A DNA stretch of 64,000 bases from Candidatus Eiseniibacteriota bacterium (lineage in GTDB: Bacteria; Desulfobacterota; Binatia; DP-6): assembly GCA_035577985.1 (NCBI GenBank), contig DATJZY010000029.1:23954-87953 (forward strand), given 5' to 3'. The position numbers and the translations under genes are program-made. The number at the start of each line of letters is the position of its first letter. Position 1 is the first letter of the stretch. Positions 26,876 to 41,645 of the stretch are shown here, piece after piece. The notes under the pieces were generated by a model, which did not search any database, was not told the origin of the DNA, and saw nothing but the letters and a program-made list of their open reading frames with translations.

Positions 26876-27796
26876 ATGACGATGCCGGCGATCCTCGAGG
26901 TGCGCGGAGCGTGCAAGCGCTTCGGGGGCGCCATCGCGCTCGACGGCGTCGATCTCGACGTGCAGCGCGGTGAATGGGTCGGGCTTCTAGGACCGAACGG
27001 CGCCGGCAAGACCACCCTGGTGCGCGCCATCGCCGGCCGCGTCCGGCTGGACGCCGGCAGCATCGCGCTCGCGGGGGGCCCGTCGGACCGCACGGCGCTC
27101 GGGCACCGCGTCGGCCTGGCGCCGCAGGAGAACGCGCTCTACCCGTTCCTCACCGCCCGCGAGAACCTCGAAGTATTCGGCCGCTTGTACGGGCTCGACG
27201 GACCCGAATTGGGCGAGCGCGTCGCCTGGGCGCTCGGCTGGACCGGCCTCGCCGAGCGCGCCGACGAGCGTACGGGCGGGTTCTCGGGCGGGATGAAGCG
27301 GCGGTTGAACCTCGCGTGCGCCGTCCTGCACCGGCCGGGCCTGGTACTGCTCGACGAGCCCACCACCGGCGTCGACCCCCAGAGCCGCGAGCGCATCTTC
27401 GCGATGCTGGCCGAGCTCCGCCGCGACGGAACGGCGCTCCTGCACACGACGCACCAGCTCGGCGAGGCGCAGGGCGTCTGCGAGCGGGTGGTGATCATCG
27501 ATCACGGTCGGGTCGTCGCGGCGGGAGCACCGCTCGAGCTCGTGGAGCGGACCCTCGGGCACGCGCAAGAGGTCGTGGTCACGCTCGATCGTGCCCCGGT
27601 CCCGGCCTCGCTGCCGACGGGGGTGGACGCGCAGGGCCGGATGCTGCGCGTGAGCATGCACGACCTGACCGTCGACCTGGCAATGCTGCTCGGCCGCCTC
27701 CGCGAAGCCGGTTACGGCGTCGACGACGTCCGGGTCGTCCGGCCCGATCTGCAGGCCGTCTTCCTTCACCTCACCGGCCGCGAGCTCCGCGAATGA
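26876..27796 (+). CDS. ABC transporter ATP-binding protein.
   Basis: Walker A (GPNGAGKTT), ABC signature (FSGGMKRRL), Walker B (LVLLDEPT) and H-loop (TTHQLGEA). Confidence 0.85.
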
Positions 27797-29052
27797 TCGG
27801 ACCCGTCGTCCGCGTCTCGTGGTTGGCGCTCGTCCGCGACCGCTACGCTCTGGTTCTCTCCTTCCTCGTTCCCGTCGCATTCTTCTCGATCCTGGCGCTC
27901 GTCTTCGGCGGGCTCGGGCGTGACACGATGGCTCCGATCCGCGTCGCCGTCGTCGACGAGGATGGAACGGCCGGAAGCGCGCTCCTCGTAGAGGCACTTC
28001 AGAGCGAATCCGGCCTGACGGCCGAGCTGCGGCCAGGCGATCCCGCTCGCACCGCCCGCGAGGCGGCCATCGGCATCGTGCGGCGTGGCGACGCGCCGGC
28101 GGCGATCGTCGTTCCCGAGGACTTCGGCAAGCATTTGGCGCGCTTCCCCGCCGAGACGCTGACCGTCGAGCTCTTCACCGACCGCGCCGCAGATCCCGTC
28201 GCGTACCACGTCGTCGGGGGACTACTGCAGCGAGCCCTCGTGCTGGCGGCGCCGGACCGGCTCGTACGCGGCGTGGCGGATTGGCTCGAGGACGAGGCAG
28301 GAGCGCTGACGCCGGCGCAGCGCCGGCTCGTCGACGACGTCGCGAAGTCCGTCGCCGGAGGAGGCCCCGACGCGGGCAGGACGGTGGCATCGCCCTTCCG
28401 CGTCGCGGTGACCGACGTGCAGGGAGCGGTCGGGCGCGAGGGCAGAGACGCCGTGTCGTACTACGCGGCGGCCATCGGCGTCATGTTCCTGCTGTTCACG
28501 ATGACAACCGCGATGCGCGGCCTCATCGCCGAGGAGGAGACCGGTACGCTGGAGCGTCTCCTCAGCACCAACCTCACCATGGGCCGGCTTCTGCTTGCGC
28601 GCTGGCTGTTCGCCACCGCCCTCGGCTGCGTCCAGCTCGCCGTCATGTTCGTCTGGGGCTGGGCCGTCTTCGGGTTGGATCTCTTCGGGCACGCGCATCT
28701 CGGCGGGGCGGTCGTGATGACCGTTGCGGCCGCGGCGGCTGCCGCGACCTTCGGGCTCGTGCTCGGCGCGGCGTGCCGAACGCAGGCCCAGCTCCAGGGC
28801 CTCGCGACCGTCGTCATCCTCCTCATGTCCGCCCTCGGCGGCAGCATGGTACCCCGCTACCTCATGCCCGAAGCGATGCAGCGTCTCGCGCTCGTGACGT
28901 TCAACGCGTGGGCCGTCAAAGGGTACGAGAAGGTCTTCTGGCGCGACGCATCCCTGACCGCGCTCTGGCCCGAGGTCTCGATGCTCGCCGCCATGACGTT
29001 GGTCGGCCTGGTCATCGCGCGCCGCTTGGCACGGCGTTGGGAATCGGTCTGA
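27793..29052 (+). CDS. ABC-2 type transporter permease.
   Basis: ATGA overlap with the ATPase gene. It has one N-terminal transmembrane helix, a large loop, then about five C-terminal helices. This is the ABC-2 exporter architecture. Confidence 0.8.
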
Positions 29053-29094: not shown

Positions 29095-30606
29095 ATGCGC
29101 GCCATCGTCATCGGGAGCGGCTTCGGGGGTCTTGCGGCTGCGGTGCGTCTCGCGATCAAGGGATACGAGGTCACGATCGTCGAGAAGCGCGACCGCCCCG
29201 GCGGCCGCGCAGCCGTCTTCGAGCAGGACGGCTTCACCTTCGACGCCGGCCCGACCATCATCACGGCGCCGTACCTGTTCGAGGATCTCTTCGCGCTCGC
29301 GGGGCGGCGGATCGCGGACTACGTGCGGTTGTTCCCGGTCGATCCCTTCTATCGGATCCGTTTCGACGACGGGACGGTCTTCGTCTACTCGGGGGACCCC
29401 GAGCGCATGCGGGCCGAGGTCCGACGCGTCGCTCCCGACGACGTGGCCGGCTACGAAGGCTTCATGGAGCGGAGCCGGCAGATCTTCGAGAAGGGCTACC
29501 TCGAGCTGGGCCACGTGCCGTTCCTCACCCCGTGGTCGATGGCGCGCGCGGTGCCGAGCCTCGTTCGCTTGGAATGCTACCGCAGCGTCCTCGGCCTCGT
29601 GCGACGGCACATCCGGAACCCGAAGCTGCGGCAGGTCTTCTCGTTCCATCCGTTGCTGGTGGGCGGCGACCCGCAGCACGCGCCGGCAATCTATGCACTC
29701 ATCTGCCACCTCGAGCGTACGTGGGGCGTGCACTTCGCGGAGGGTGGTATGGGGGCCGTGGTGCAGGCACTGGTGAGGCTCGCGGAGGAGCTCGGCGTCG
29801 TGCTGCGCCTCGGCGCCCCCGTCGAACAGATCGACATCACCGCCGGACGGGCGCGGGGTGTGCGACTCGCAGGCGGCGAGCGGATCGACGCGGATCTCGT
29901 CGTCTGCAACGGGGACGTGTCGTGGACGTACCAACACCTGATCGATCCCCGCCATCGTCCGTCGAACAGCGATCGCAAACTGCTGGGCATGCGCTACAGC
30001 ATGAGCCTTTTCCTCATCTACTTCGGAACCGACCGGACGTACCCGGACCTCGCCCACCACACGATCGTGCTCGGGCCGCGCTACGAAGGGCTCCTGGACG
30101 ACGTCTTCCGGCACCGGCGCCTCGCCGCGGACATGAGCCTCTACCTGCACGCGCCGACGCGCTCGGACACCTCGCTCGCGCCGCCGGGCTGTGAGGCCTT
30201 CTACGTGCTCTCGCCCGTGCCGAACCTCGCGGCCGACGTGGACTGGGCGACGATCAGGGAGCGCTATCGCGACGCCGTGTACGATCGGCTCGAGCGGACG
30301 TGCCTCCCGGATCTGCGCAACCACGTCGTGACCGAGCGTCTGTTCACGCCGGACGACTTCCGGAGCGAGCTCTGGAGCCACCTGGGTGCGGCGTTCAGCT
30401 TCGAGCCCACGCTCATGCAGAGCGCCTACTTCCGGGGCCACAACCGGTGCCCCGACGTCCAGAACCTCTACTTCGTCGGCGCCGGCACCCACCCGGGCGC
30501 GGGCCTCCCGGGAGTGCTGTCGAGCGCGCGCGTCACCGACTCGCTCATACCGCGGGCCCCGGATGCCCGTGTGCGACCGGCCGAGCGTCGTGCTGCAGCC
30601 GGCTGA
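29095..30606 (+). CDS. crtI: Phytoene desaturase (CrtI family).
   Basis: FAD-binding N-terminus MRAIVIGSGFGGLAAAVRLAIKGYEVTIVEKRDRPGGRA, CrtI-typical length (503 aa) and C-terminal YFVGAGTHPGAGLPGV motif. Confidence 0.85.
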   Translation: MRAIVIGSGFGGLAAAVRLAIKGYEVTIVEKRDRPGGRAAVFEQDGFTFDAGPTIITAPYLFEDLFALAGRRIADYVRLFPVDPFYRIRFDDGTVFVYSGDPERMRAEVRRVAPDDVAGYEGFMERSRQIFEKGYLELGHVPFLTPWSMARAVPSLVRLECYRSVLGLVRRHIRNPKLRQVFSFHPLLVGGDPQHAPAIYALICHLERTWGVHFAEGGMGAVVQALVRLAEELGVVLRLGAPVEQIDITAGRARGVRLAGGERIDADLVVCNGDVSWTYQHLIDPRHRPSNSDRKLLGMRYSMSLFLIYFGTDRTYPDLAHHTIVLGPRYEGLLDDVFRHRRLAADMSLYLHAPTRSDTSLAPPGCEAFYVLSPVPNLAADVDWATIRERYRDAVYDRLERTCLPDLRNHVVTERLFTPDDFRSELWSHLGAAFSFEPTLMQSAYFRGHNRCPDVQNLYFVGAGTHPGAGLPGVLSSARVTDSLIPRAPDARVRPAERRAAAG

Positions 30607-31537
30607 GAACGCGGCGGCCGACCTGGCCCACTGCCGCGCGGCGATCCACCGGCACTCGCGGAGCTTCTACGCCGCGTCGCGGCTCTTGCCCGCGCGGGTA
30701 CGGGACGCCGCGGTCGCCACCTATGCGTTCTGCCGCGCCGCCGACGACGCCGTCGACGAGGCCGGGAGCGCGATCGACGCGCGTATCCGGCACGCGGCCG
30801 TCCTCCGACGGCTCGATCGCATCTACCGCGGGGAGCCCGTGGACACCGCTTCGGGTCGTGCCTTCGCGCTGGTCGTCGCGGCCGCCCGCATTCCGCGCGA
30901 GGAGCCCGAAGCTCTGCTGGCCGGCATGGCCCAGGACCTGGGCCCCGTCCGCATCGCCGACGAGGACGCCCTGCTCCTCTATTGCTATCGGGCCGCGGGC
31001 GTCGTCGGGCGCATGATGAGCCGCATCATGGGCAGGAGCGACGCCGCCGCGCTCGGACGTGCGGCGCACCTCGGCATCGCCATGCAACTCACGAACATCG
31101 CACGCGACGTCGGCGAGGACACGACGCGCGATCGCATCTATCTGCCGTCGGGGTGGCTGGCCGAGGCCGGCGGCTCGGAGACGGAGGTGTTGGCTGCACG
31201 GGCGACGCCGGCGGTTCGGCGCGTGACGCTCCGGGTCCTCGGGCTCGCCGAGCTCTACTACGACAGTGGCATCGCGGGCATCGGCATGCTGCCCGCGTCG
31301 TGTCGCCCGGCGATCCTGTCGGCCGCGCTGCTCTACCGCGCGATCGGCCGGCGGGTCGCCGCTCGCGACGGCGACGGCGTGACCGAGCGAGCTCGCGTGA
31401 GCGGGATCGGGAAGGCCGGTCTCATCGCCGTCGCGGCGGTGCGCTGTGCAATCGATCCGCGGCTGCGCCGGCGCACGACGCGACCGGACGCGTCGCACCT
31501 GGATGCATCGCTCCGTCGCACTGGCGTGTTGCCATGA
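30563..31537 (+). CDS. crtB: Phytoene synthase (CrtB, squalene/phytoene synthase family).
   Basis: Family blocks YAFCRAADDAVDE (Asp-rich motif 1), IAMQLTNIARDVGEDTTRDRIYLP (motif 2), and a SQS/PSY-like length. It overlaps the 3' end of crtI. Confidence 0.85.
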   Translation: MPVCDRPSVVLQPAENAAADLAHCRAAIHRHSRSFYAASRLLPARVRDAAVATYAFCRAADDAVDEAGSAIDARIRHAAVLRRLDRIYRGEPVDTASGRAFALVVAAARIPREEPEALLAGMAQDLGPVRIADEDALLLYCYRAAGVVGRMMSRIMGRSDAAALGRAAHLGIAMQLTNIARDVGEDTTRDRIYLPSGWLAEAGGSETEVLAARATPAVRRVTLRVLGLAELYYDSGIAGIGMLPASCRPAILSAALLYRAIGRRVAARDGDGVTERARVSGIGKAGLIAVAAVRCAIDPRLRRRTTRPDASHLDASLRRTGVLP

Positions 31538-32106
31538 GACATCCGCGCTTCCAGGCGCTGCGGGCCGCCGTGTGCGCCGTCGTGGTGACGGCCGGCGCGC
31601 TGGTCGGCAGCGGGGCGGCGGCCGAGGATCCGCTCGCCGGCATCGTGCTCGACGACACGACCGGCCGCTCGTGGCATCTGGACGAGCTTCGGAACGCGCC
31701 CGTCCTGTTGATCATCGCCGACCGCAGGGCTCCCGAACAGGCGACCCAGTGGGGAGAGCGCCTGGCCGCGCGGGCGCTGCCCGTGGCTCCCTGGCGTGAC
31801 CACGGCAAGGTCGTCTGGCTCTCGGTCGCCGACCTGCGCCGCGTCCCGGATTACGCGCGCGATTCCGCCCGGGAACGCGTGCGCGACGAGGAGACGGGTC
31901 GCAGCCAGGACGAGCGACGCCAGCGCTCGCCACTGCTGCTCGATTGGAGCGGGCTCCTCGCCGAGCGCTTCGGGGCCGAGCGCGGAGAGGCTCTCGTCGT
32001 GCTGCTGGCGGCGGATCGACGCCGGCTCGTGGATGCGCGCGGCGCGCCGACGGACGCGACGGTCACCCGACTCGCCGACGCGATCACGACCGCCGCGACG
32101 CCGTGA
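31534..32106 (+). CDS. Hypothetical exported protein (190 aa).
   Basis: ATGA overlap with the crtB stop. Signal-peptide-like N-terminus MRHPRFQALRAAVCAVVVTAGALVGSGAAA. No recognisable catalytic motif. Confidence 0.5.
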   Translation: MRHPRFQALRAAVCAVVVTAGALVGSGAAAEDPLAGIVLDDTTGRSWHLDELRNAPVLLIIADRRAPEQATQWGERLAARALPVAPWRDHGKVVWLSVADLRRVPDYARDSARERVRDEETGRSQDERRQRSPLLLDWSGLLAERFGAERGEALVVLLAADRRRLVDARGAPTDATVTRLADAITTAATP

Positions 32107-32707
32107 CGGACGGCGGCGCCCCAGGGACGACTCGGTTCGGATATGGGACGTCGATGCGCAGGGTCCCGAAGGCGCGATCGAAGATCGACAGGGTGGCACT
32201 GTAGTTGCAGTCGCGGCGCCGATGATGCGCCTCGTGGATGCGCGGCGTGACGTACCAGTTGAGCACGGGAACCCGCTGCCACCAATCGGGGAGCACCTCG
32301 CGGCCGCAATGCGCCAGCACGATGCTTCCCGAGAGGAAGACGCTGACCACGACGAGGGAGACGAGATGGATCGGGACGAGCGACATCGCCACCGGCATGA
32401 AGCCGATGATCAGCAGGGCCTCGAGGGGGTGGAACGCGAACGCGGTCAGCACCGTCGGCGCGGTGGAGCGATGGTGGACGGCGTGAATGCTCCGGTACAG
32501 GACCCGCGTGTGCAGCAGGCGATGCAGGACGTAGAAATAGACGTCGAAGAGCAGCACGTATCCGAGCACCTCGCCCGCGAAGGCGAGGCCCGTCGGGCAC
32601 TCGGTGGCGACGTGGAGCACGCCGCCCAGGACGAGGAACGTCGTGGCCATCCCCGTCGCGGTCACGAGGGCGAGCGTCACGATCGAATGACGCAGGTCGT
32701 GCTCCAC
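32084..32707 (-). CDS. Fatty-acid hydroxylase superfamily membrane protein, probably a carotene hydroxylase (CrtZ-like).
   Basis: Four transmembrane segments and the His-box motifs HRLLH, HAVHH and HEAHH, at CrtZ-like size (207 aa). It lies inside the carotenoid cluster. Confidence 0.7.
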   Translation of the reverse strand: MEHDLRHSIVTLALVTATGMATTFLVLGGVLHVATECPTGLAFAGEVLGYVLLFDVYFYVLHRLLHTRVLYRSIHAVHHRSTAPTVLTAFAFHPLEALLIIGFMPVAMSLVPIHLVSLVVVSVFLSGSIVLAHCGREVLPDWWQRVPVLNWYVTPRIHEAHHRRRDCNYSATLSIFDRAFGTLRIDVPYPNRVVPGAPPSVTASRRS

Positions 32708-32823: not shown

Positions 32824-33861
32824 ATGAAGCTGGGCCCGAACGTGCGCGAAGGCGCGGCGCCGGCGGTCGAGACGGCGCAGCTCGAGGCCGTCTGGCCCCG
32901 GCGATTCGATCTCGATCCGATCCGCGCCCTGCTCGGCGCCGAGGCCGATCAGGCGCTCTGCGACGTCCTCGCCAGCCGGGTGAACGCCCCCATCTGGAGT
33001 CTCGCCGATCGCGGCGGGAAGCGTTGGCGACCGACGATCTCCCGGCTCGCATTCCAGGCGGTCGGCGGCGCACCGCCGGTCCCGGAAGCGATCTGCCAGG
33101 TGGCCGAGGTCCTGCACACGGGGAGCCTCATCGTCGACGACATCCAGGACGGCGCCACCGAGCGGCGCGGGGGCCCTGCGGCGCACGTCGCCTTCGGCAT
33201 GCCCACCGCTCTCAACGCGGCGAACGCCGCCTACTTTCGCGCCCTCGAGATCCTGCGCCGTGCGCTGCCGGACGACCTGCGGCTGCGGGCGCTCGACATG
33301 CTGGCCGAAGAGCTGTTTGCGGCGCATCTCGGCCAGGCGCTCGACCTCGCGCTGGCGCCCCATTTCCGTCGCACGACGTTGCGGAGCGCGCACTACTTCG
33401 TGCTCGCCCGTGCGAAGACCGGGGCTCTCGTGCGGATCGCGGCACGCCTCGGGGCGATCGCGGCCGACGCGACGGCCGCCCACGAGACCGCGCTCGGCGA
33501 GTGGGCGAGCGAGCTCGGCGTCGCCTACCAGATCGACAACGATCTCGACGATCTCGCTTCCGACATGCAGGACGTCATGGCCTGCCGGCCCACCTACCCG
33601 CTCCTGCTGATCCTCGAGCAGGGCGGCCCCGGTGCGGCGACGCTGAGCGCCCGCCTCGGACGACCGACCCTCGCCGACGGCGACATCCGTGAGCTGCGCA
33701 ACCTCTTCGTGCGCGAGCGGGTCGCGGAGCGCGGGCGTGCCGCCGCCCGGCGCTCGACCAAGCGCGCGCTGGAGGCCATCCGGACGCTTCCCGCGAGCGA
33801 GTCGCGCGACGCCCTCGAGCGGATGACGCACGAGCTCGCCGGTGACCCGCTGCGTCCGTGA
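32824..33861 (+). CDS. crtE: Polyprenyl (geranylgeranyl) diphosphate synthase (CrtE-like).
   Basis: First Asp-rich motif LIVDDIQDG and second motif QIDNDLDD. It sits within the carotenoid cluster. Confidence 0.8.
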   Translation: MKLGPNVREGAAPAVETAQLEAVWPRRFDLDPIRALLGAEADQALCDVLASRVNAPIWSLADRGGKRWRPTISRLAFQAVGGAPPVPEAICQVAEVLHTGSLIVDDIQDGATERRGGPAAHVAFGMPTALNAANAAYFRALEILRRALPDDLRLRALDMLAEELFAAHLGQALDLALAPHFRRTTLRSAHYFVLARAKTGALVRIAARLGAIAADATAAHETALGEWASELGVAYQIDNDLDDLASDMQDVMACRPTYPLLLILEQGGPGAATLSARLGRPTLADGDIRELRNLFVRERVAERGRAAARRSTKRALEAIRTLPASESRDALERMTHELAGDPLRP

Positions 33862-36098
33862 GCATGGCGACAGAGTACCTGCTCTTCAATCTCGTCGTCA
33901 TCGCCGGTCCGTTGGCGCTCGGGCGATGGCGGGCGACCTCGTTCCGCGGCCGGTGGCTTCCGGCCCTCGCGGCCGCGCTCACGGTCGCGGTGCCGTTCAT
34001 CGCGTGGGACGTCCTCGTGACCGGACGGCACTGGTTCTTCAACGTGGCGCCGACGGCGATCCGGCCCCTCGGATTGCCGCTCGGCGAATGGGCCTTCTTC
34101 CTGAGCGTGCCTCTCGCCTGCGCCTTCACGTGGGAGATGCTGACGGGCGGCGTCGATCGGGCCCCGGCGCGTCGCACCCCGGCGATCTGGACGGCGGTGG
34201 CCATCCTCCTGGCTGCGGGCGCGGCCGCGTGGAGCCGGGGGCTCGAGTACACGGCCGTCGCGGGTGCGGCCCTCGCGTGCGTGGTGACCCTCGACACGAT
34301 GGGCGGCGGCCTCGTCGTGCGCCACCGGCGCTTCGTGCCGTTCGCCCTCGCGGTCCTCGGATTCACCACGATCTTCAACGGGTACCTGACTGCGCGCCCG
34401 CTGGTGCTCTACGACGCCCGCTACCAGCTCGATTTCCGCATCGGCACGATCCCGGTCGAGGACTTCATCTACGGCCTGGCGCTGGTGGTGGCCAACGTCG
34501 CGCTCTTCGAACGCGTGCGCGATCGAATGAAGGCGCCGCGTACGCCGCCGGGCGACACCGTCATCCGGCGCATGATCCGCATGCGACTCGGAGGCTATCG
34601 CCAGCAGGTGAACGTCGCGCGTCCGGGGACGGCGCCGCGCCTCGCGCGGCCACGCCGGGTCGCCGTGGTCGGCGCCGGCCTCGCCGGCCTACGGGCCGCC
34701 ACGCTGCTGGGCGACCGGGGGTTCGGGGTCCATCTCCTCGAGAAGGCCCGTCACCTCGGCGGCAAGATCGGCGCCTGGCAGCACCGCCTGGGGGACGGGA
34801 CCACGGTGGAGGTCGAGCACGGGTTCCATGCCTTCTTTCGTCACTACTACAACCTCGGCCGATTCATGGACGAGGTCGGCGCCTCGCGGTACCTGCGTCC
34901 GATCGACGACTACCGGATCCTGACGCGTGGCGGGGAAGCATACGGGTTCAAGGATCTCGAGACCGCGCCGGTGCAGAACATCCTGGCGATGCTGAAGACG
35001 CCGATGCTACGCCTTCGCGACGTCCTCATGCGCCCGCGGCTCGCGCGGCTCACCGCGCTGCTCGCCTACGATCCGCAGCGCACGTTCGCGCGGTACGACA
35101 ACGTGTCGTTCGACGCCTTCGCCGACCAGGCGGACCTGCCGCCCGCCCTGCGTCTCGTGTTCTACACCTTCGCGCGTGCCTTCTTCGCCACGCCGGATCG
35201 GATGTCGGCGGCCGAGGTCATCAAGAGCTTCCACTTCTTCTACCTCTCCCACGATCGCGGGCTGCTCTACGACCATCCGTCGGACACCTACGGGCGTACG
35301 GTGCTGGAGCCCATGCAGGCCCGCCTCGACGCGGTCGGGGTGACACTCCGGCTCGGTGTGGAGGTCGGGACGATCGCGCGCGAGGGCGACGGCTTTCGGA
35401 TCGGCGACGAGCCGTTCGACTACCTCGTGCTCGCGCCCGACGTCGTCGGCGCGCGGACGATCGCGGACGCGTCGCCGGACCTCCGTCGGATCGCGCCTGA
35501 AGCCGTGGCGAAGCTGAGCGCTCTGCGTCCGTCGCAGCCTCATGCCGTCCTCCGCCTGTGGATGGACCAGCCGTCGGGATCCGATCTCCCCGGCTTCGTC
35601 ATCACCGACAGGAAGGAGCTGCTCGATTCCATCACGTTCTTCCACCGCGTCGAGGAGAGCTCGGCCGCGTGGGCTACGCGAAGCGGGGGCAGCGTGCTCG
35701 AGCTGCACTGCTACGCCGTGCCGGACGGCGTCCGGGAATCGGCGATCGCGGAGACCCTGAAGGAAGAGCTGTTCGACTATCTTCCGGCCCTGCGTCGGGC
35801 CCGCGTTCTCGGGGAGCACCTCCAGTTGAATCGCAACTTCACGGCATTTCACACGGGCATGCACGAGCGCCGCCCGACGGTGGAGACCGAGGATTCCCGT
35901 CTCGTGCTGGCCGGAGACTGGGTCGCGTTGCCGCTGCCCGCCATGCTGATGGAGGCCGCGGTGACGTCGGGGCTCGAGGCAGCCAACGCCATCCTGCGGC
36001 AGGAGGGCGTCCGCGAAGAGCCCGTGTACTCGGTCCCGCTACGCGGCCTGCTCGCGCGATCGGCGCGCGGGTCGCGTTCCGCCCAGAGCGAATCCTAG
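33858..36098 (+). CDS. Fusion protein: N-terminal lycopene-cyclase domain (CrtYcd-type, ~230 aa, 6–7 TM) plus a C-terminal CrtI/amine-oxidase-superfamily FAD-dependent oxidoreductase (~500 aa).
   Basis: ATGA overlap with crtE. The N-terminal hydrophobic region has the paired-half pattern of heterodimeric lycopene cyclase domains. A dinucleotide-binding motif RRVAVVGAGLAGLRAATLLGDRGFGVHLLEKARHLGGK follows, with a long CrtI-like C-terminus. Confidence 0.7.
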   Translation: MSMATEYLLFNLVVIAGPLALGRWRATSFRGRWLPALAAALTVAVPFIAWDVLVTGRHWFFNVAPTAIRPLGLPLGEWAFFLSVPLACAFTWEMLTGGVDRAPARRTPAIWTAVAILLAAGAAAWSRGLEYTAVAGAALACVVTLDTMGGGLVVRHRRFVPFALAVLGFTTIFNGYLTARPLVLYDARYQLDFRIGTIPVEDFIYGLALVVANVALFERVRDRMKAPRTPPGDTVIRRMIRMRLGGYRQQVNVARPGTAPRLARPRRVAVVGAGLAGLRAATLLGDRGFGVHLLEKARHLGGKIGAWQHRLGDGTTVEVEHGFHAFFRHYYNLGRFMDEVGASRYLRPIDDYRILTRGGEAYGFKDLETAPVQNILAMLKTPMLRLRDVLMRPRLARLTALLAYDPQRTFARYDNVSFDAFADQADLPPALRLVFYTFARAFFATPDRMSAAEVIKSFHFFYLSHDRGLLYDHPSDTYGRTVLEPMQARLDAVGVTLRLGVEVGTIAREGDGFRIGDEPFDYLVLAPDVVGARTIADASPDLRRIAPEAVAKLSALRPSQPHAVLRLWMDQPSGSDLPGFVITDRKELLDSITFFHRVEESSAAWATRSGGSVLELHCYAVPDGVRESAIAETLKEELFDYLPALRRARVLGEHLQLNRNFTAFHTGMHERRPTVETEDSRLVLAGDWVALPLPAMLMEAAVTSGLEAANAILRQEGVREEPVYSVPLRGLLARSARGSRSAQSES

Positions 36099-37555
36099 CG
36101 TGCGGCCGGGATCCTCGCCGTCGCTCGCGTCGCGATCCCGTTCAGCATGCCGGCGAAGACGCGCGCGTGCAGGGGGTAGATGCCGTACCAGTACGCGAGG
36201 CCCGCGAGCCCGGCGGGATCGAAGATCGCCGTCTGGCGGATGGTGGAGCCCCGCGCGTCGGGTGTGACCTCGAACTCGAGCCACGCCCGCCCGGGCAGCT
36301 TCATTTCGGCGGCGAGGCGAAGGCGTCGCGGGGGGTCGTAGGTCTCGACCCGCCAGAAGTCCAGCGGGTCGCCGACCGACAGCGACTCGGGATCGCGCCG
36401 TCCTCGCCGCATCCCCACGCCGCCGACGAGGAGGTCGAGAAGGCCCCGCAGCCGCCACAGACCGCGCCCGGCGTACCAGCCGCTGCCTGCGCCGATGCGG
36501 CGGATCGGCGCGAAGGCGGCTTCGGGCTCGACGTCGACGTGGACGGCACGCGAGTCGACCAGCCGCGTGCCGAACCGCATCCCGCCCCAGGACGACGACA
36601 CGCCGGCCGACGAGACGGCGTCCGACCAGCGCGTCTCGGCGAGCTCACGGTCCTCGTTCGCCAGCGCGCGTGCGATAGCCTGCTGCAGCCCCATGGGCCG
36701 TACGACGAACGTCCGCAACGCCCGGTCGTCGTCCACGACGCTCGGGTTGCGCAGACTCTCGATGAGCTTGCGTCCGACGCGGGCGTAGACCGGGGTCGTG
36801 AGACCGAGCCAGAGGCTCGAGAGCCACGGCGTCAGCACGGGCACGGCGACGAGCAGGCGGCGAAGACCGCGCTGTCGCGCATACTCCCGCATGATCTCGC
36901 CGTATGAGACCCGATCGGTGCCGCCGATCTCGAAGACGCCGTCCGTCCGCGCCGGGAGCGTCAGGGTCTCGAGCAGATACGCGATCACGTCCTCGATCGC
37001 GATCGGCTGTGCGGGCGTCCAGACCCAGCGTGGGCAGATCATGATCGGCAGGCGTTCCACGAGCGCGCGAATCAGCTCGTACGACAGGCTGCCCGAGCCG
37101 AGGACGATCGAGGCCCGAAGCTCCACGACCGGAACGCCGGTCGACGCGAGCAAGGCCCCGGTCTCCTGCCGACTACGCAGGTGGGCCGAGAGGGAGGTCG
37201 CCGCCGAGCCGAGACCGCCGAGATAGACGATGCGCTGCACCCCCGCGTCGCGCGCGGCGTGCGCGAAGTTCCGTGCGGCCTCCCGGTCCTGCGATTCGAA
37301 GTCACCGCCCGAGCCCATGGAATGCACGAGGTAGTAGGCCGTGTGGACGCCCGCCATCGCGGGCTCCAGTGAAGCGGCATCGAGGCAGTCGCCGCCCACG
37401 ATCGTCGTCGGCGGCGTCACGCGCCCCGCCAGGTAATCGGGTCGCCGCGCCAGACAGCGCACACGGTGACCGGCGTCCGCGAGCGCGCGCAGGAGTCGCC
37501 CGCCGATGTAGCCGGAAGCCCCCGTGAGGAGGACGAGGTCCCTGCCCGGGGTCAC
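36095..37555 (-). CDS. NAD(P)-binding SDR-family (NmrA/epimerase-like) protein with a C-terminal DUF2867-like domain.
   Basis: Rossmann motif LVLLTGASGYIGGRLLRAL at the N-terminus. The ~150-aa C-terminal extension (WYAGRGLWRLRGLLDLLVGGVG...) is typical of DUF2867 fusions. Confidence 0.75.
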   Translation of the reverse strand: MTPGRDLVLLTGASGYIGGRLLRALADAGHRVRCLARRPDYLAGRVTPPTTIVGGDCLDAASLEPAMAGVHTAYYLVHSMGSGGDFESQDREAARNFAHAARDAGVQRIVYLGGLGSAATSLSAHLRSRQETGALLASTGVPVVELRASIVLGSGSLSYELIRALVERLPIMICPRWVWTPAQPIAIEDVIAYLLETLTLPARTDGVFEIGGTDRVSYGEIMREYARQRGLRRLLVAVPVLTPWLSSLWLGLTTPVYARVGRKLIESLRNPSVVDDDRALRTFVVRPMGLQQAIARALANEDRELAETRWSDAVSSAGVSSSWGGMRFGTRLVDSRAVHVDVEPEAAFAPIRRIGAGSGWYAGRGLWRLRGLLDLLVGGVGMRRGRRDPESLSVGDPLDFWRVETYDPPRRLRLAAEMKLPGRAWLEFEVTPDARGSTIRQTAIFDPAGLAGLAYWYGIYPLHARVFAGMLNGIATRATARIPAAR

Positions 37556-37603: not shown

Positions 37604-38728
37604 TCAGCGCGCCGGGTCGAGGAACTCGCGGAACCCGTAGCGCGCGTGAGGTCCGAAGGCGATCTGCTCGAGGACGCCGACGCCCTCCTCGTCGCCGAGG
37701 CGTGCCTTCACGACCTGCTGGACGTGCTGGTTGTCGAGCGCCATCGGGTCGAGGTCGCTCGTGCGCCACGACTCGCCGCCGATCGCGAGCTCGCCCTTCC
37801 ACAGGCCGTGGCCCCACTCGGGATGGGTGTAGCCGATGCCCTTCATGCGGAAGCAGAGGACCGGATCGAGCCGGATCACGTCGCGCTTGTCGCCGGGATG
37901 CACGAGCGTGATCTCCGCCGCGCGCGCGCGTCGCGTGCCGGGCTCGTACGTGAGGCGGTGCTCGACGGCGACCAGGTGGTGCGTCTTCGGGTCCTCCATC
38001 GCCGGGACACGGTCGAGCGACTCGTGCGCCGGCACGACGACGCCGTCCCAGTGCCACACGCGACCTTCGGAGTCTTCGAACACGCTGACGAGCGAGCACC
38101 GGTCCTTCCAGTGGATCGGCGACCAGATGAAGAAGATCTGCGGCATCTCGTAGAGGGGAGCGCCGCCCGGATCCTGCACGCCGACGGGTCGGATGCCCCA
38201 GGAGCGGTCCTTGGTGCCGTAGACGCGAGCGGGATCGATCGCGAGCCGCTTCCCGTCGTAGCCGATCTCGCCCTCCCAGCGCCCGAACTGGTCGAAGCGG
38301 GTCGCGTCCATGATGACGCGACCGCCTCGCCGCATGGTCTGGCGCCCCTCCTCGACGTTCGCCGTGCGCGGCGTCCAGCGTAGGTCGCACGCGATACCGG
38401 TCTCGTTCTCGTCGATCGTGACGCGAAGACGCCGCATCGGCTCGACGATCTGGATCCGGAACGGCCCGACCTCGACCTCGGTCGGCTCGCGCGGCGCGCG
38501 GCGGGAGGCGTGGAAGGCATGCTGCACGCCGTCGCGCACGATCGAGAAGCCGCAGTCCATGATGCCGAGGTTCGGATAGAGCGCGGCGCCGATGCCGAAG
38601 TAGAACTCGCCGTCGGCGGCGTAGCCGTTGAACCAGTAGCGGTCATAGGCGTTCCGATCGCTCGTCGCGGGGTGCGCGATCGGATCGGGCGTCTGGTGGA
38701 CCGGATAGTCGTCGAGCTTCGAGAGCAT
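37604..38728 (-). CDS. Conserved hypothetical protein (374 aa). A carotenoid 1,2-hydratase (CrtC-like) role is possible but unverified.
   Basis: Clean ORF with non-junk composition (MLSKLDDYPVHQTPDPIAHPATSDRNAYDRYWFNGYAADGEFYFGIG...). The only link to carotenoid function is its position in the cluster. Confidence 0.55.
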   Translation of the reverse strand: MLSKLDDYPVHQTPDPIAHPATSDRNAYDRYWFNGYAADGEFYFGIGAALYPNLGIMDCGFSIVRDGVQHAFHASRRAPREPTEVEVGPFRIQIVEPMRRLRVTIDENETGIACDLRWTPRTANVEEGRQTMRRGGRVIMDATRFDQFGRWEGEIGYDGKRLAIDPARVYGTKDRSWGIRPVGVQDPGGAPLYEMPQIFFIWSPIHWKDRCSLVSVFEDSEGRVWHWDGVVVPAHESLDRVPAMEDPKTHHLVAVEHRLTYEPGTRRARAAEITLVHPGDKRDVIRLDPVLCFRMKGIGYTHPEWGHGLWKGELAIGGESWRTSDLDPMALDNQHVQQVVKARLGDEEGVGVLEQIAFGPHARYGFREFLDPAR

Positions 38729-41117: not shown

Positions 41118-41645
41118 ATGGACGTCCTCGGCATGTCGGGCAGCCTCCGTGCCGCATCGACGAACGCGCGCCTGCTGCGCGCCGCCGCGAAGCTCGCGCC
41201 CGACGGAATGCAGTTCACGTTCTACGACGAGCAGATCGCCGCCCTGCCCCACTTCAGCCCGGACCTGGACGGCGAACGAGCCGCGGCTCCGCCTGCGGTG
41301 GCCGACCTCCGGCGACGCCTCTCGGCCGCCGACGCGGTGCTCATCTGCTGTCCGGAGTACGCGCACGGCGTTCCCGGTGCGTTCAAGAACGCGCTCGACT
41401 GGATCGTGTCGAGCGGCGAGCTCACCGACAGGCCGGTCGCGCTCGTCATGGCGTCGGCCAGCGGGGCGGAGCACGCACGTGCGGCGCTCGCGTCCACGCT
41501 CCGGGTCATGGGCGCGAACCTCGTCTTCGAGCGGTCGCTCGCCTTCTCGCCGAGGTACCTGGGGGCGGACGGCAGCATCCTCGACCCGGAGGCGGAGCGC
41601 GCCGTCCGCGAAGCCGTCGTCGCGCTCAGTCGTCCTTCGCCTTGA
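41118..41645 (+). CDS. NAD(P)H-dependent FMN reductase (flavodoxin-like fold).
   Basis: Family pattern: MSGSLRAASTNARLLRAA, YDEQIAALPHFSPDLD, DAVLICCPEYAHGVPGAFKNALDW. Confidence 0.75.
   Translation: MDVLGMSGSLRAASTNARLLRAAAKLAPDGMQFTFYDEQIAALPHFSPDLDGERAAAPPAVADLRRRLSAADAVLICCPEYAHGVPGAFKNALDWIVSSGELTDRPVALVMASASGAEHARAALASTLRVMGANLVFERSLAFSPRYLGADGSILDPEAERAVREAVVALSRPSP

What the first reader, a model, noticed from the sequence alone, without database searches (positions are those of the whole stretch)
33858..36098. Unusual fusion of a lycopene-cyclase (CrtYcd-type) membrane domain to a CrtI/amine-oxidase-like FAD oxidoreductase
A single 746-aa ORF starts with a ~230-aa polytopic domain that has the paired-repeat pattern of heterodimeric-type lycopene cyclase domains. 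It continues into a ~500-aa flavoprotein with a classic GxGxxG FAD motif (RRVAVVGAGLAGLRAATLL...EKARHLGGK). It is translationally coupled to crtE and lies within a crtI/crtB/CrtZ-like cluster. A cyclase–desaturase/oxidase fusion would channel cyclisation and a redox step (for example 3,4-desaturation, ketolation or aromatisation of the ring). I do not recall this as a well-known arrangement.
Basis: partly seen in the sequence, partly recalled or inferred. Interest (0 to 1): 0.55.

Follow-up and report, generated by a model that had tools for sequence, protein, structure and literature searches.

The report
Lycopene cyclase fused to CrtU-type desaturase
One intact gene in a carotenoid cluster of an uncultured Binatia bacterium joins a membrane lycopene cyclase to a CrtU-type flavoenzyme, so it probably makes aromatic (isorenieratene-type) pigments from lycopene; the fusion is real and widespread, has been noted before, and has never been tested biochemically.

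Summary
Window 33864-36098 (+) is one intact 744-aa gene; a GTG at 33858 is the alternative start. It has a 7-helix N-terminal domain with two lycopene-cyclase repeats that pass the Pfam and TIGRFAM cut-offs. A 10-17-residue linker joins it to a complete FAD flavoprotein.

The flavoprotein is not CrtI-type. It aligns end to end with Streptomyces CrtU from a canonical crtY-crtT-crtU cluster (36% identity, E 2e-73). It lacks the Rieske insertion of CruE. Its best structural match is plant phytoene desaturase. Close homologues carry the JGI name "isorenieratene synthase".

The fusion is not an artefact and not rare. Of 211 retrieved cluster representatives, 119 are at least 700 aa, and all those in the full-length search's top list carry both domains. 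They come from Binatia and several Myxococcota lineages. Other lineages keep the same two genes adjacent or linked. A 2022 paper on myxobacteria already lists a "lycopene cyclase fused to CrtU" in a figure legend. I found no biochemical work.

The most likely function is lycopene to beta-ring to aromatic phi-ring (chlorobactene or isorenieratene type). The exact product is unproven, because this clade lies outside the one CrtU and one CruE reference I could include. Interest is moderate: a natural two-step fusion enzyme, and a possible non-phototrophic source of "green sulfur bacteria" biomarkers.

The parts
33864..36098 (+). crtYcd::crtU fusion gene, 744 aa plus stop (alternative GTG start at 33858 gives 746 aa)
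   Evidence: ORF list and translation. The gene call on ENA contig ERZ27256607:k141_29559 translates identically. Both domains are found by Pfam and NCBIfam. AF2 model has mean pLDDT 87.7 and pTM 0.84.
33864..34526 (+). N-terminal lycopene-cyclase domain (aa 1-221): two PF18916 repeats, seven predicted transmembrane helices
   Evidence: PF18916 in two stretches, TIGR03462 above cut-off. Seven hydrophobic segments. AF2 helices at 4-19, 31-52, 73-94, 106-124, 128-146, 157-177 and 198-221.
34071..34091 (+). Repeat-1 acidic motif G-L-P-L-G-E-W (aa 70-76). G70, L71, P72 and E75 are invariant in 25 fused homologues.
   Evidence: Alignment A1. Myxococcota homologues read GLPxEE; the Binatia clade reads GLPLGE.
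34446..34463 (+). Repeat-2 acidic motif T-I-P-V-E-D (aa 195-200). T195, P197, E199 and D200 are invariant.
   Evidence: Alignment A1.
34527..34559 (+). Variable, positively charged linker (aa 222-232) between TM7 and the start of the CrtU-type module
   Evidence: Length and sequence vary among fused homologues; the Binatia versions are 6-10 residues longer.
34560..34598 (+). Conserved amphipathic helix with the motif R-x-I-x-x-R-(L/F)-G-G-Y-R (aa 233-245). It is also the N-terminus of most stand-alone relatives of this clade.
   Evidence: G243 is invariant; G244 and Y245 are nearly invariant. The motif (with variants such as L-x-N-Y-K) sits at the N-terminus of stand-alone homologues from Ignavibacteriales, Spirochaetaceae, Bacteroidota and Myxococcota, and is absent from the Streptomyces CrtU and Thiodictyon CruE. 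AF2 helix 233-242.
34647..36056 (+). CrtU-type FAD-dependent desaturase module (aa 262-731), including the GxGxxG dinucleotide-binding motif at aa 266-301 (nt 34659-34766)
   Evidence: PF01593 over 275-713 and PF13450 over 270-339. 36% identity, 229 bits, E 2e-73 to Streptomyces anulatus CrtU. Foldseek best hit is rice PDS 5MOG, TM 0.83 normalised by target, rmsd 3.2 A.
32824..33861 (+). crtE-like polyprenyl diphosphate synthase directly upstream; its stop lies 2 nt before the fusion's ATG
   Evidence: PF00348, 147.7 bits. Sequence at the junction.
29095..30606 (+). crtI (phytoene desaturase family), supplies lycopene
   Evidence: TIGR02734, 617 bits against a cut-off of 238.
30563..31537 (+). 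crtB-like phytoene synthase
   Evidence: PF00494, 243 bits. Best NCBIfam hit is 15-cis-phytoene synthase at 272.7 bits, below its equivalog cut-off of 500.
31534..32106 (+). Conserved 190-aa ORF of unknown function inside the cluster, with a signal-peptide-like N-terminus
   Evidence: No Pfam or NCBIfam hit. Conserved at the same position in four Binatia loci at 54-67% identity.
32084..32707 (-). FA_hydroxylase / sterol-desaturase-family gene (207 aa) on the opposite strand; a possible carotenoid-modifying enzyme
   Evidence: PF04116, 101.8 bits. No CrtZ model was hit; the listed named relatives are 'sterol desaturase family protein' or close variants. Conserved in 3 of 4 Binatia loci.

Best explanation
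This is a bifunctional carotenoid enzyme encoded by the last gene of a crtI-crtB-...-crtE-crtYcdU cluster in an uncultured Binatia bacterium. The N-terminal 7-helix CrtYcd-type domain cyclises the psi-ends of lycopene (made by CrtE, CrtB and CrtI) to beta-rings, giving gamma- or beta-carotene. The C-terminal CrtU-type, FAD-dependent desaturase/methyl-shift module is held on the cytoplasmic face of the membrane by the cyclase. It then aromatises those rings to phi-type aryl end groups, giving chlorobactene, beta-isorenieratene or isorenieratene. Fusion gives 1:1 stoichiometry, a membrane anchor for the flavoprotein and a short path between two consecutive steps. Shown here: the domain identities, the integrity and conservation of the fusion, homology to a CrtU from a canonical cluster, absence of the CruE-specific Rieske insert, and linkage of the two genes in other phyla. 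Inferred: both catalytic activities, the order of steps, the ring type, the topology and any channelling.
For: Domain identity: two PF18916 repeats and TIGR03462 pass their cut-offs, as does PF01593. The acidic P-x-(G/E)-E and P-x-E-D motifs of both repeats are invariant in 25 homologues. CrtU identity: the end-to-end alignment to S. anulatus CrtU gives 36% identity and E 2e-73. That gene lies in a crtY / SAM-methyltransferase / crtU operon, divergent from a crtE-crtI-crtB-DUF5914 operon. Homologues at 73-88% identity are named 'isorenieratene synthase' or 'carotenoid phi-ring/chi-ring synthase' by JGI. The protein has no Rieske insert, unlike Thiodictyon CruE. The closest solved sequence and fold is plant PDS 5MOG, which matches the published CrtP/CrtQ/CrtU relationship (PMC2889829). 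Functional linkage: the same two modules occur as adjacent crtU->crtYcd genes in L045 (Binatia), L052 and L078 (Chitinophagales). They occur as genes 1-2 kb apart in most Ignavibacteriales and Melioribacteraceae loci. Context: the gene is the last in a cluster with crtI, crtB and crtE, conserved in four Binatia MAGs. No CrtY/CrtL-type cyclase was detected elsewhere in the 64-kb window. Topology: there are seven TM helices, and Arg-rich loops after TM1, TM3, TM5 and TM7 put the flavoprotein in the cytoplasm. Precedent from established knowledge: Brevibacterium linens makes isorenieratene with separate CrtYc, CrtYd and CrtU. Binatota genomes were already predicted to make isorenieratene (PMC8262859).
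Against: No member of this fused family, and no stand-alone member of its clade that I could identify, has been characterised. In a simple NJ tree, both references I could include (Streptomyces CrtU and Thiodictyon CruE) fall outside the whole Binatia/Myxococcota/Ignavibacteria/Bacteroidota/Spirochaete clade. Ring type is therefore extrapolated across about 36% identity. Identity to CruE (36-37% in blocks) is no lower than to CrtU. Pfam and NCBIfam returned no CrtU match; the best equivalog hit is HpnE, below its cut-off. In the Binatia clade the first cyclase motif has Gly-Glu instead of Glu-Glu. CruA/CruP-type cyclases were not searched for, and only 64 kb of the genome is visible.
Confidence: 0.68

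Rival explanations
1. The fusion works in the same way, but the flavoprotein module makes chi-rings or a mixture of aromatic isomers (renieratene / renierapurpurin type), as CruE does, rather than phi-rings.
For: Identity to Thiodictyon CruE (36-37% over two blocks) equals that to Streptomyces CrtU (36%). Both references lie outside the clade. KEGG and JGI lump the phi- and chi-ring synthases in one orthologue group (names). CruE isomer ratios vary between taxa (PMC7395447).
Against: The protein lacks the Rieske [2Fe-2S] insertion present in the CruE examined (PF00355; alignment gap). The Calothrix homologue is annotated with a Rieske component too. Its length and collinearity match CrtU.
Confidence: 0.12
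2. The flavoprotein module is a CrtU-like desaturase that does not aromatise. It might, for example, introduce a 3,4- or other ring or chain desaturation in the cyclase product, so the end product is a non-aromatic carotenoid.
For: The clade is distinct from the characterised enzymes I could include, and it has its own N-terminal LGGYR motif. No curated model confirms CrtU function. I found no report of aromatic carotenoids from Binatia, Myxococcota or Ignavibacteria in the searched library.
Against: The alignment to CrtU is full-length and stronger than to any other named family: the PDS/ZDS models match only the N-terminal 200 residues, and HpnE scores below its cut-off. The repeated pairing with a beta-ring-forming cyclase in several phyla fits an enzyme whose substrate is the beta-ring.
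Confidence: 0.13
3. The cyclase-like domain has lost catalysis and serves only as a membrane anchor for CrtU. Cyclisation is done by another cyclase elsewhere in the genome.
For: Some stand-alone relatives carry a simple N-terminal hydrophobic segment instead (L047, L050, L065, L071), so anchoring alone could be the selected function. The first motif is G-E rather than E-E in the Binatia clade. By my reading of Table S2 in PMC9304148, the one genome listed with the fusion also has a CrtL.
Against: About 36 positions in the N-domain are invariant across sequences only 45-50% identical, including E75, P197, E199 and D200. That is far more constraint than an anchor needs. The domain scores well above the family cut-offs. 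No CrtY/CrtL-type cyclase is in the window.
Confidence: 0.05
4. Assembly or frameshift artefact: two separate genes read as one.
For: The source is a metagenome assembly of about 70% G+C, where long spurious ORFs are common.
Against: The same single-ORF architecture appears in 119 independent cluster representatives from JGI, ENA, NCBI and Logan. It also appears in 18 of the 83 loci examined. The junction region is conserved.
Confidence: 0.01

Closest known systems
CrtU, carotenoid phi-ring synthase / beta-carotene desaturase-methyltransferase (EC 1.3.99.39). Known from Streptomyces griseus, Brevibacterium linens, Mycobacterium and green sulfur bacteria. Represented here by the S. anulatus orthologue L002:6839-8392.
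   Same: Collinear over the whole flavoprotein module (36% identity, E 2e-73). Same Pfam domains and no Rieske insert. Sits in a carotenoid cluster next to a lycopene cyclase.
   Different: Here it is covalently fused behind a 7-TM CrtYcd-type cyclase. It carries a clade-specific N-terminal LGGYR helix that Streptomyces CrtU lacks. It belongs to a separate clade in the NJ tree. Streptomyces uses a CrtY-type soluble flavoprotein cyclase, not the CrtYcd type.
CrtYc/CrtYd heterodimeric lycopene beta-cyclase and its single-chain CrtYcd forms (Brevibacterium linens, Myxococcus xanthus, haloarchaeal and Sulfolobus CrtY, Bacteroidota CrtYcd).
   Same: Two PF18916 repeats, seven TM helices and a conserved acidic motif in each repeat. 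In B. linens this cyclase type works upstream of CrtU on the way to isorenieratene (established knowledge).
   Different: It has a roughly 520-residue flavoenzyme at its C-terminus. The first motif is P-L-G-E in the Binatia clade.
'Lycopene cyclase fused to CrtU' (gene 'Y') listed for myxobacteria in Fig. 4 of Perez-Castano et al. 2022 (PMC9304148).
   Same: Same two-module architecture. Myxococcota fused homologues are 45-51% identical over the full length.
   Different: That paper only labels the gene in a figure legend, without analysis or biochemistry. The window's copy is from Binatia and belongs to a 66-88%-identical Binatia subgroup with a longer linker.
Fungal CrtYB / CarRP / AL-2 (lycopene cyclase domain fused to phytoene synthase).
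   Same: Same cyclase domain family at the N-terminus, fused to a second carotenoid-pathway enzyme (established knowledge; not tested here).
   Different: The fusion partner there is phytoene synthase, two steps before the cyclase. Here it is the enzyme that acts directly on the cyclase product.
CruE, carotenoid chi-ring synthase (cyanobacteria; okenone-producing Chromatiaceae; here Thiodictyon L003:5782-7686).
   Same: Homologous flavoprotein, 36-37% identity in two blocks.
   Different: CruE has a Rieske domain inserted in the middle and is not fused to a cyclase.
Plant-type phytoene desaturase PDS (PDB 5MOG).
   Same: Best solved sequence and fold match (E 1.7e-11 by sequence; Foldseek E 1e-26, TM 0.83 normalised by target). 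This suggests a similar FAD site and hydrophobic substrate tunnel.
   Different: 23% identity, with a different substrate and reaction. The PDS and ZDS NCBIfam models match only the first 200 residues or so and are far below their cut-offs.

Membership tests
Lycopene cyclase domain family (PF18916 / TIGR03462; CrtYc-CrtYd type) | Score above the curated HMM cut-offs | tested here: met
   PF18916 scores 74.3 bits (cut-off 27). TIGR03462 scores 75.4 bits (cut-off 39.4).
Lycopene cyclase domain family (PF18916 / TIGR03462; CrtYc-CrtYd type) | Two tandem repeats in one chain (c-d fusion type) | tested here: met
   Both models match in two stretches, the best at aa 130-219. Each repeat opens with an invariant E-Y (E4/Y5; Y129) and ends with the acidic motif. 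Pairwise BLASTP of the two halves did not detect the repeat.
Lycopene cyclase domain family (PF18916 / TIGR03462; CrtYc-CrtYd type) | Conserved P-x-E-(E/D) acidic motif in each repeat (motif recalled from the literature on CrtYc/Yd and CarRP) | tested here: met
   Repeat 2 reads P-V-E-D, with P197, E199 and D200 invariant. Repeat 1 reads P-L-G-E, with P72 and E75 invariant. The first acidic position is Gly in the Binatia clade and some Myxococcota copies, and Glu in most Myxococcota.
Lycopene cyclase domain family (PF18916 / TIGR03462; CrtYc-CrtYd type) | Polytopic membrane protein (about 7 TM in single-chain forms) | tested here: met
   Seven hydrophobic segments and seven long helices in the AF2 model.
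Lycopene cyclase domain family (PF18916 / TIGR03462; CrtYc-CrtYd type) | Converts lycopene to gamma- or beta-carotene | not testable with these tools
   Needs heterologous expression and HPLC.
CrtU (carotenoid phi-ring synthase) | Full-length homology to a CrtU from a canonical isorenieratene cluster | tested here: met
   36% identity over 459 columns, 229 bits, E 2e-73 to S. anulatus CrtU. That gene lies in a crtY / methyltransferase / crtU operon next to crtE-crtI-crtB.
CrtU (carotenoid phi-ring synthase) | Assignment to the CrtU/CruE orthologue group by an independent annotation source | tested here: met
   Homologues at 73-88% identity are named 'isorenieratene synthase' or 'carotenoid phi-ring synthase / chi-ring synthase' by JGI. 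That these names map to KEGG K09879 comes from PMC10576062. The window protein itself carries no name.
CrtU (carotenoid phi-ring synthase) | No Rieske insertion (separates CrtU from CruE) | tested here: met
   No PF00355 hit. The CruE insert of about 130 residues has no counterpart in the window protein.
CrtU (carotenoid phi-ring synthase) | Groups in a tree with experimentally characterised CrtU | tested here: inconclusive
   In an NJ tree of 38 sequences, Streptomyces CrtU and Thiodictyon CruE both sit outside the clade that holds the window protein. Green sulfur bacterial, Brevibacterium and Mycobacterium CrtU could not be included.
CrtU (carotenoid phi-ring synthase) | Converts beta-rings to phi (2,3,6-trimethylaryl) rings | not testable with these tools
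   Needs expression in a beta-carotene or lycopene background, followed by MS.
   TIGR02734 scores 28.7 bits against 238.1, over residues 268-309 only. BLASTP to the window's own CrtI aligns only 52 residues, E 3e-5.
HpnE (hydroxysqualene dehydroxylase; the best NCBIfam equivalog hit) | Score above the TIGR03467 cut-off | tested here: not met
   127.6 bits against a cut-off of 283.05. The context is carotenoid genes, not hopanoid genes.
CruE (carotenoid chi-ring synthase) | Rieske [2Fe-2S] domain inserted in the flavoprotein | tested here: not met
   Present in Thiodictyon CruE (PF00355 at aa 329-392) and absent from the window protein.

The most novel reading that the evidence does not exclude
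The LGGYR-motif clade of CrtU-like enzymes (Binatia, Myxococcota, Ignavibacteria, Bacteroidota, Spirochaetes) lies outside both references I could include, Streptomyces CrtU and Thiodictyon CruE. It might make an end group not yet assigned to any enzyme, such as a different aryl methylation pattern or a non-aromatic didehydro ring. The fused form might do so in a coupled cyclisation-desaturation that never releases beta-carotene. Separately, these abundant non-phototrophic soil and sediment bacteria could be a sizeable unrecognised source of the aryl-isoprenoid and isorenieratane biomarkers used to infer photic-zone euxinia.
Probability: 0.15. Interest if true: 0.65.

Novelty: new member of a known kind. 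Interest (0 to 1): 0.35.

Why it matters
If the predicted activity is confirmed, one gene would convert lycopene to aromatic carotenoids, a compact part for engineering isorenieratene-type antioxidants. It would also be a clear natural 'Rosetta-stone' fusion: it links the CrtYcd-type cyclase functionally to CrtU, and the same gene pair is found linked in several phyla.

It matters for geobiology too. Isorenieratane and chlorobactane in rocks are read as signs of green sulfur bacteria and sulfidic, sunlit water. Cyanobacteria and actinobacteria are already known exceptions (PMC7395447, PMC9342728). Widespread bifunctional genes in non-phototrophic Binatia and Myxococcota would add further possible sources. 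The gene itself is an expected pathway component and not a new kind of system.

Tried and rejected
- **Internal repeat by BLASTP.** BLASTP of the two halves of the N-domain against each other found only a short out-of-register match (E 0.01). The repeat rests on the HMM hits and the motif alignment.
- **Single or multiple origin of the fusion.** In the NJ tree of the flavoprotein module, fused and unfused Myxococcota sequences are interleaved on short deep branches. I could not settle the question. Both halves of the window protein are closer to Myxococcota fused genes (44-48% in the N-domain, 47-50% in the C-domain) than to the unfused Binatia pair in L045 (28% and 49%). This argues against an independent fusion of the L045-type gene pair within Binatia.
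- **A second cyclase or second CrtU in the window.** tblastn with Streptomyces and Thiodictyon CrtY and with both halves of the fusion found nothing beyond the gene itself (best E 0.5). CruA-type cyclases were not tested.
- **Is the FA_hydroxylase neighbour a CrtZ?** NCBIfam gives only a weak OlsE hit. The listed tblastn hits against plasmids that carry an annotation are mostly 'sterol desaturase family protein'. This stays unresolved.
- **Literature.** Searches for aromatic carotenoids in Nannocystis, for CrtU in Ignavibacterium, and for names such as CrtYU or CrtY-CrtU found no relevant paper.
- **Which cultured myxobacterium carries the fusion.** The sheet of PMC9304148 Table S2 that names it is truncated in the held copy. 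The rows of the 'All' sheet seem shifted against the species names. From gene-ID prefixes I infer Enhygromyxa salina DSM 15201, IMG gene 2639622832. This is unverified.
- **DUF2867 / NAD-binding gene downstream.** I rejected it as part of the system because it is not found downstream of the fusion in the other Binatia loci.

Full report

Yes. The + strand carries an uninterrupted ORF from 33858 to 36098; its translation is.

The window is about 70% G+C and full of long spurious ORFs, so ORF length alone proves nothing. The domain evidence is strong:
- Pfam Lycopene_cyc PF18916 matches in two stretches (74.3 bits, cut-off 27).
- Amino_oxidase PF01593 matches over residues 275-713 (99.1 bits, cut-off 19.8).
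- NAD_binding_8 also matches.
- NCBIfam TIGR03462 (lycopene cyclase domain) scores 75.4 bits against a cut-off of 39.4.

The window corresponds to ENA contig ERZ27256607:k141_29559 (100,850 bp). The gene called there (P0001, 744 aa) starts at ATG 33864 and translates identically. Homologues start at the same M-x-x-E-Y, so I take 33864 as the start. The crtE stop codon (33859-33861) lies 2 nt upstream.

**2. Is it one gene or two?**

One.
- The full-length search returned at least 313 homologues. Nearly all of the best 120 are 717-798 aa and carry both PF18916 and PF01593.
- Of the 211 distinct 90%-identity cluster representatives retrieved are at least 700 aa.
- Across 83 loci examined (the source contig, two reference plasmids and 80 GTDB species-representative loci), 18 have the two halves in one collinear match. 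These come from Candidatus Binatia, Nannocystaceae/Nannocystales, Myxococcaceae, Archangium and Polyangia MAGs. For the 12 where I extracted the ORF, it is a single frame of 700-849 aa.
- An alignment of 25 fused proteins, mostly 45-51% identical to the window protein, shows about 36 invariant positions in the membrane domain, many more in the flavoprotein, and G243 in the junction region.

A frameshift artefact is excluded.

**3. Anatomy**

- *Membrane domain, residues 1-221.* There are seven hydrophobic segments. The AlphaFold model places seven long helices there (mean pLDDT 87.7, pTM 0.84). Each repeat ends in an acidic motif at the start of a helix: G-L-P-L-G-E-W (aa 70-76; P72 and E75 invariant) and T-I-P-V-E-D (aa 195-200; P197, E199 and D200 invariant). 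Arginine-rich loops follow TM1, TM3, TM5 and TM7. By the positive-inside rule, this puts the N-terminus outside and the flavoprotein in the cytoplasm. This topology is an inference.
- *Linker, residues 222-232.* Short, variable and basic.
- *Conserved helix, residues 233-245.* It reads R-x-I-x-x-R-(L/F)-G-G-Y-R. This is not a linker feature. It is the native N-terminus of most stand-alone relatives in Ignavibacteriales, Spirochaetaceae, Bacteroidota and Myxococcota, and it is absent from Streptomyces CrtU and Thiodictyon CruE.

The fusion is therefore a plain end-to-end join of a complete cyclase and a complete flavoenzyme.

**4. What is the flavoprotein?**

It is not CrtI. The CrtI-family model scores 28.7 bits against a cut-off of 238, over about 40 residues. 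BLASTP against the window's own CrtI aligns only the dinucleotide-binding motif.

No CrtU model turned up in either library. The best equivalog hit is HpnE at 127.6 bits, below its cut-off of 283.

To get a CrtU reference I ran tblastn of the C-terminal half against plasmids. It hit 13 Streptomyces, 2 Streptantibioticus and 1 Kitasatospora records, a Thiodictyon plasmid and a Calothrix plasmid.
- The S. anulatus hit lies in a lycopene cyclase / SAM-methyltransferase / FAD-oxidoreductase operon, divergent from a polyprenyl synthase / phytoene desaturase / phytoene synthase / DUF5914 operon. From my own knowledge, that is the crtYTU / crtEIBV layout described for S. griseus.
- The window's C-half aligns with this CrtU over its whole length: 36% identity, 229 bits, E 2e-73.
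- Against Thiodictyon CruE, the chi-ring synthase of okenone producers, it aligns at 36-37% in two blocks. The blocks are separated by an insert that is a Rieske domain (PF00355). The window protein has no such insert.
- The closest solved protein is plant-type phytoene desaturase 5MOG, both by sequence (E 1.7e-11) and by fold (Foldseek E 1e-26, TM 0.83 normalised by target, rmsd 3.2 A). It is well ahead of the amine oxidases. This fits the published statement that CrtU is a relative of CrtP and CrtQ and not of CrtI (PMC2889829).
- Homologues at 73-88% identity are named 'isorenieratene synthase' or 'carotenoid phi-ring synthase / carotenoid chi-ring synthase' by JGI.

I conclude that the module is CrtU-type.

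One caveat applies. In an NJ tree of 38 sequences, both references fall outside the large clade that holds the window protein and its fused and unfused relatives. Ring chemistry is therefore extrapolated.

**5. Surroundings**

The local gene order is:
- ABC-2 transporter
- crtI (TIGR02734, 617 bits)
- a phytoene synthase
- a 190-aa ORF with no family
- a FA_hydroxylase-family gene on the minus strand
- crtE
- the fusion

The same order recurs in four Binatia MAG loci, L004-L007. The fusion there is 71-75% identical to the window's, and L005 lacks the hydroxylase. In several Myxococcota loci the fused gene also lies near crtI, crtB and crtE.

No CrtY/CrtL-type cyclase and no second CrtU-like gene is in the window.

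I could not show that it is CrtZ. NCBIfam gives only a weak OlsE hit, and its listed named relatives are mostly 'sterol desaturase family protein'.

**6. Evidence that the two modules work together**

Besides the fusion, the same pair occurs in two other forms:
- Tightly adjacent separate genes in the opposite order (crtU, then a 221-243-aa two-repeat cyclase; the Pfam check covered L045 and L078). These are L045 (Binatia), L052 and L078 (Chitinophagales).
- Genes 1-2 kb apart in most Ignavibacteriales and Melioribacteraceae loci, and about 2 kb apart in one Myxococcales locus.

Some stand-alone Myxococcota relatives carry a single N-terminal hydrophobic segment instead. Membrane attachment thus appears to be a recurring need for this clade.

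From established knowledge, Brevibacterium linens makes isorenieratene with separate CrtYc, CrtYd and CrtU. This cyclase type feeding CrtU therefore has a precedent.

**7. Most likely mechanism**

CrtE, CrtB and CrtI make lycopene. The cyclase domain forms beta-rings. The CrtU-type module, tethered at the cytoplasmic membrane face, then carries out the FAD-dependent desaturation and methyl shift that yields aryl (most likely phi) end groups. The products would be chlorobactene, beta-isorenieratene or isorenieratene.

The hydroxylase-family neighbour might modify the product further. Fusion fixes the stoichiometry, anchors the flavoprotein and shortens the path between consecutive steps.

- *Shown:* domain identities, integrity, conservation, linkage and absence of the Rieske insert.
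- *Inferred:* both activities, the ring type, the topology and any channelling.

Confidence is about 0.68. The rivals are chi-ring or mixed aromatic products, a non-aromatising desaturation, an anchor-only cyclase domain, and an artefact. They are listed separately with the results that would refute them.

**8. Comparison with what is known, and novelty**

The fusion has been seen before. The legend of Fig. 4 in Perez-Castano et al. [quoted passage not shown] From Table S2, the carrier appears to be Enhygromyxa salina DSM 15201. This rests on gene-ID prefixes, because the relevant sheet is truncated in the held copy.

Binatota genomes were predicted to make isorenieratene from KEGG annotations, with no mention of a fusion (PMC8262859). 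The same holds for photosynthesis-gene-bearing Myxococcota (PMC10576062).

I found no paper that analyses or tests the fused enzyme. The window's gene is therefore a new, Binatia-clade member of a known but uncharacterised kind of fusion between two known enzyme families.

**9. Verdict**

Interest is moderate at 0.35. It would be a useful natural bifunctional enzyme. It also bears on how aromatic carotenoid biomarkers are read, since non-phototrophic producers weaken their link to green sulfur bacteria (PMC7395447; PMC9342728). It is not a new kind of system.

Noticed in passing
window 31534-32106 (+): A 190-aa ORF between crtB and crtE has a signal-peptide-like N-terminus (MRHPRFQALRAAVCAVVVTAGALVGSGAAA) and no Pfam or NCBIfam match. 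It is conserved at the same position in four Binatia carotenoid clusters at 54-67% identity. It may be an uncharacterised carotenoid-associated protein.
   Followed up: partly
window 32084-32707 (-): A FA_hydroxylase / sterol-desaturase-family gene (207 aa) sits inside the cluster on the opposite strand. Its 3' end overlaps that of the 190-aa ORF by 23 nt. It is conserved in 3 of 4 Binatia loci and could not be identified as CrtZ. It could hydroxylate the ring or the aryl group.
   Followed up: partly
window about 26880-29052 (+); L001:3013-5189: An ABC-2 type transporter (ATPase plus permease) lies directly upstream of crtI. The permease is found at that position in all four related Binatia loci at 68-76% identity. 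It may be linked to the carotenoid cluster.
   Followed up: partly
L045:7992-10175, L052:7875-10239, L078:7905-10170: In one Binatia MAG, one 'delta proteobacterium' MAG and one Chitinophagales MAG, the same two modules are separate, tightly adjacent genes in the opposite order (crtU, then a 221-243-aa cyclase; two PF18916 repeats confirmed for L045 and L078). These cyclases are only 28-36% identical to the window's N-domain.
   Followed up: yes
L047, L050, L065, L071 (stand-alone CrtU-like genes of Polyangiaceae, Archangium, Myxococcaceae): These stand-alone relatives start with a single hydrophobic segment ahead of the LGGYR-type helix (which varies there, e.g. L-G-P-Y-R or L-x-N-Y-R). This looks like a simpler membrane anchor in place of the cyclase domain.
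   Followed up: no
P0203 (798 aa, Myxococcales MAG); L072 (839-aa ORF): P0203 is a CrtU-like flavoprotein fused to glycosyltransferase domains (PF13632, PF13506, PF13641) instead of a cyclase. The 839-aa ORF in L072 has no N-domain match and is also longer than a stand-alone CrtU. These may be other fusion partners for the same enzyme.
   Followed up: no
window 36095-37555 (-): A convergent gene for an NAD(P)-binding (NmrA/SDR-like) plus DUF2867 protein overlaps the fusion's stop codon by 3-4 nt. It is not found downstream of the fusion in the other Binatia loci, so it is probably unrelated.
   Followed up: partly
window 37604-38728 (-): An Rv3169-family protein (NCBIfam NF053593, 404 bits, cut-off 150) of unknown function.
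   Followed up: no
window 41626-45468 (-) and beyond; L001:17763-22235: Two very large proteins (1280 and about 1499 aa) carry Laminin_G_3 and Dicty_CTDC repeats downstream of the cluster.
   Followed up: no
L001:1-2955 (window about 23860-26820, minus strand): A wax ester synthase / DGAT gene, a weakly matching alpha/beta-hydrolase gene and an acetyl-CoA hydrolase/transferase-family gene lie upstream of the transporter. This hints at neutral-lipid storage metabolism in this organism.
   Followed up: no
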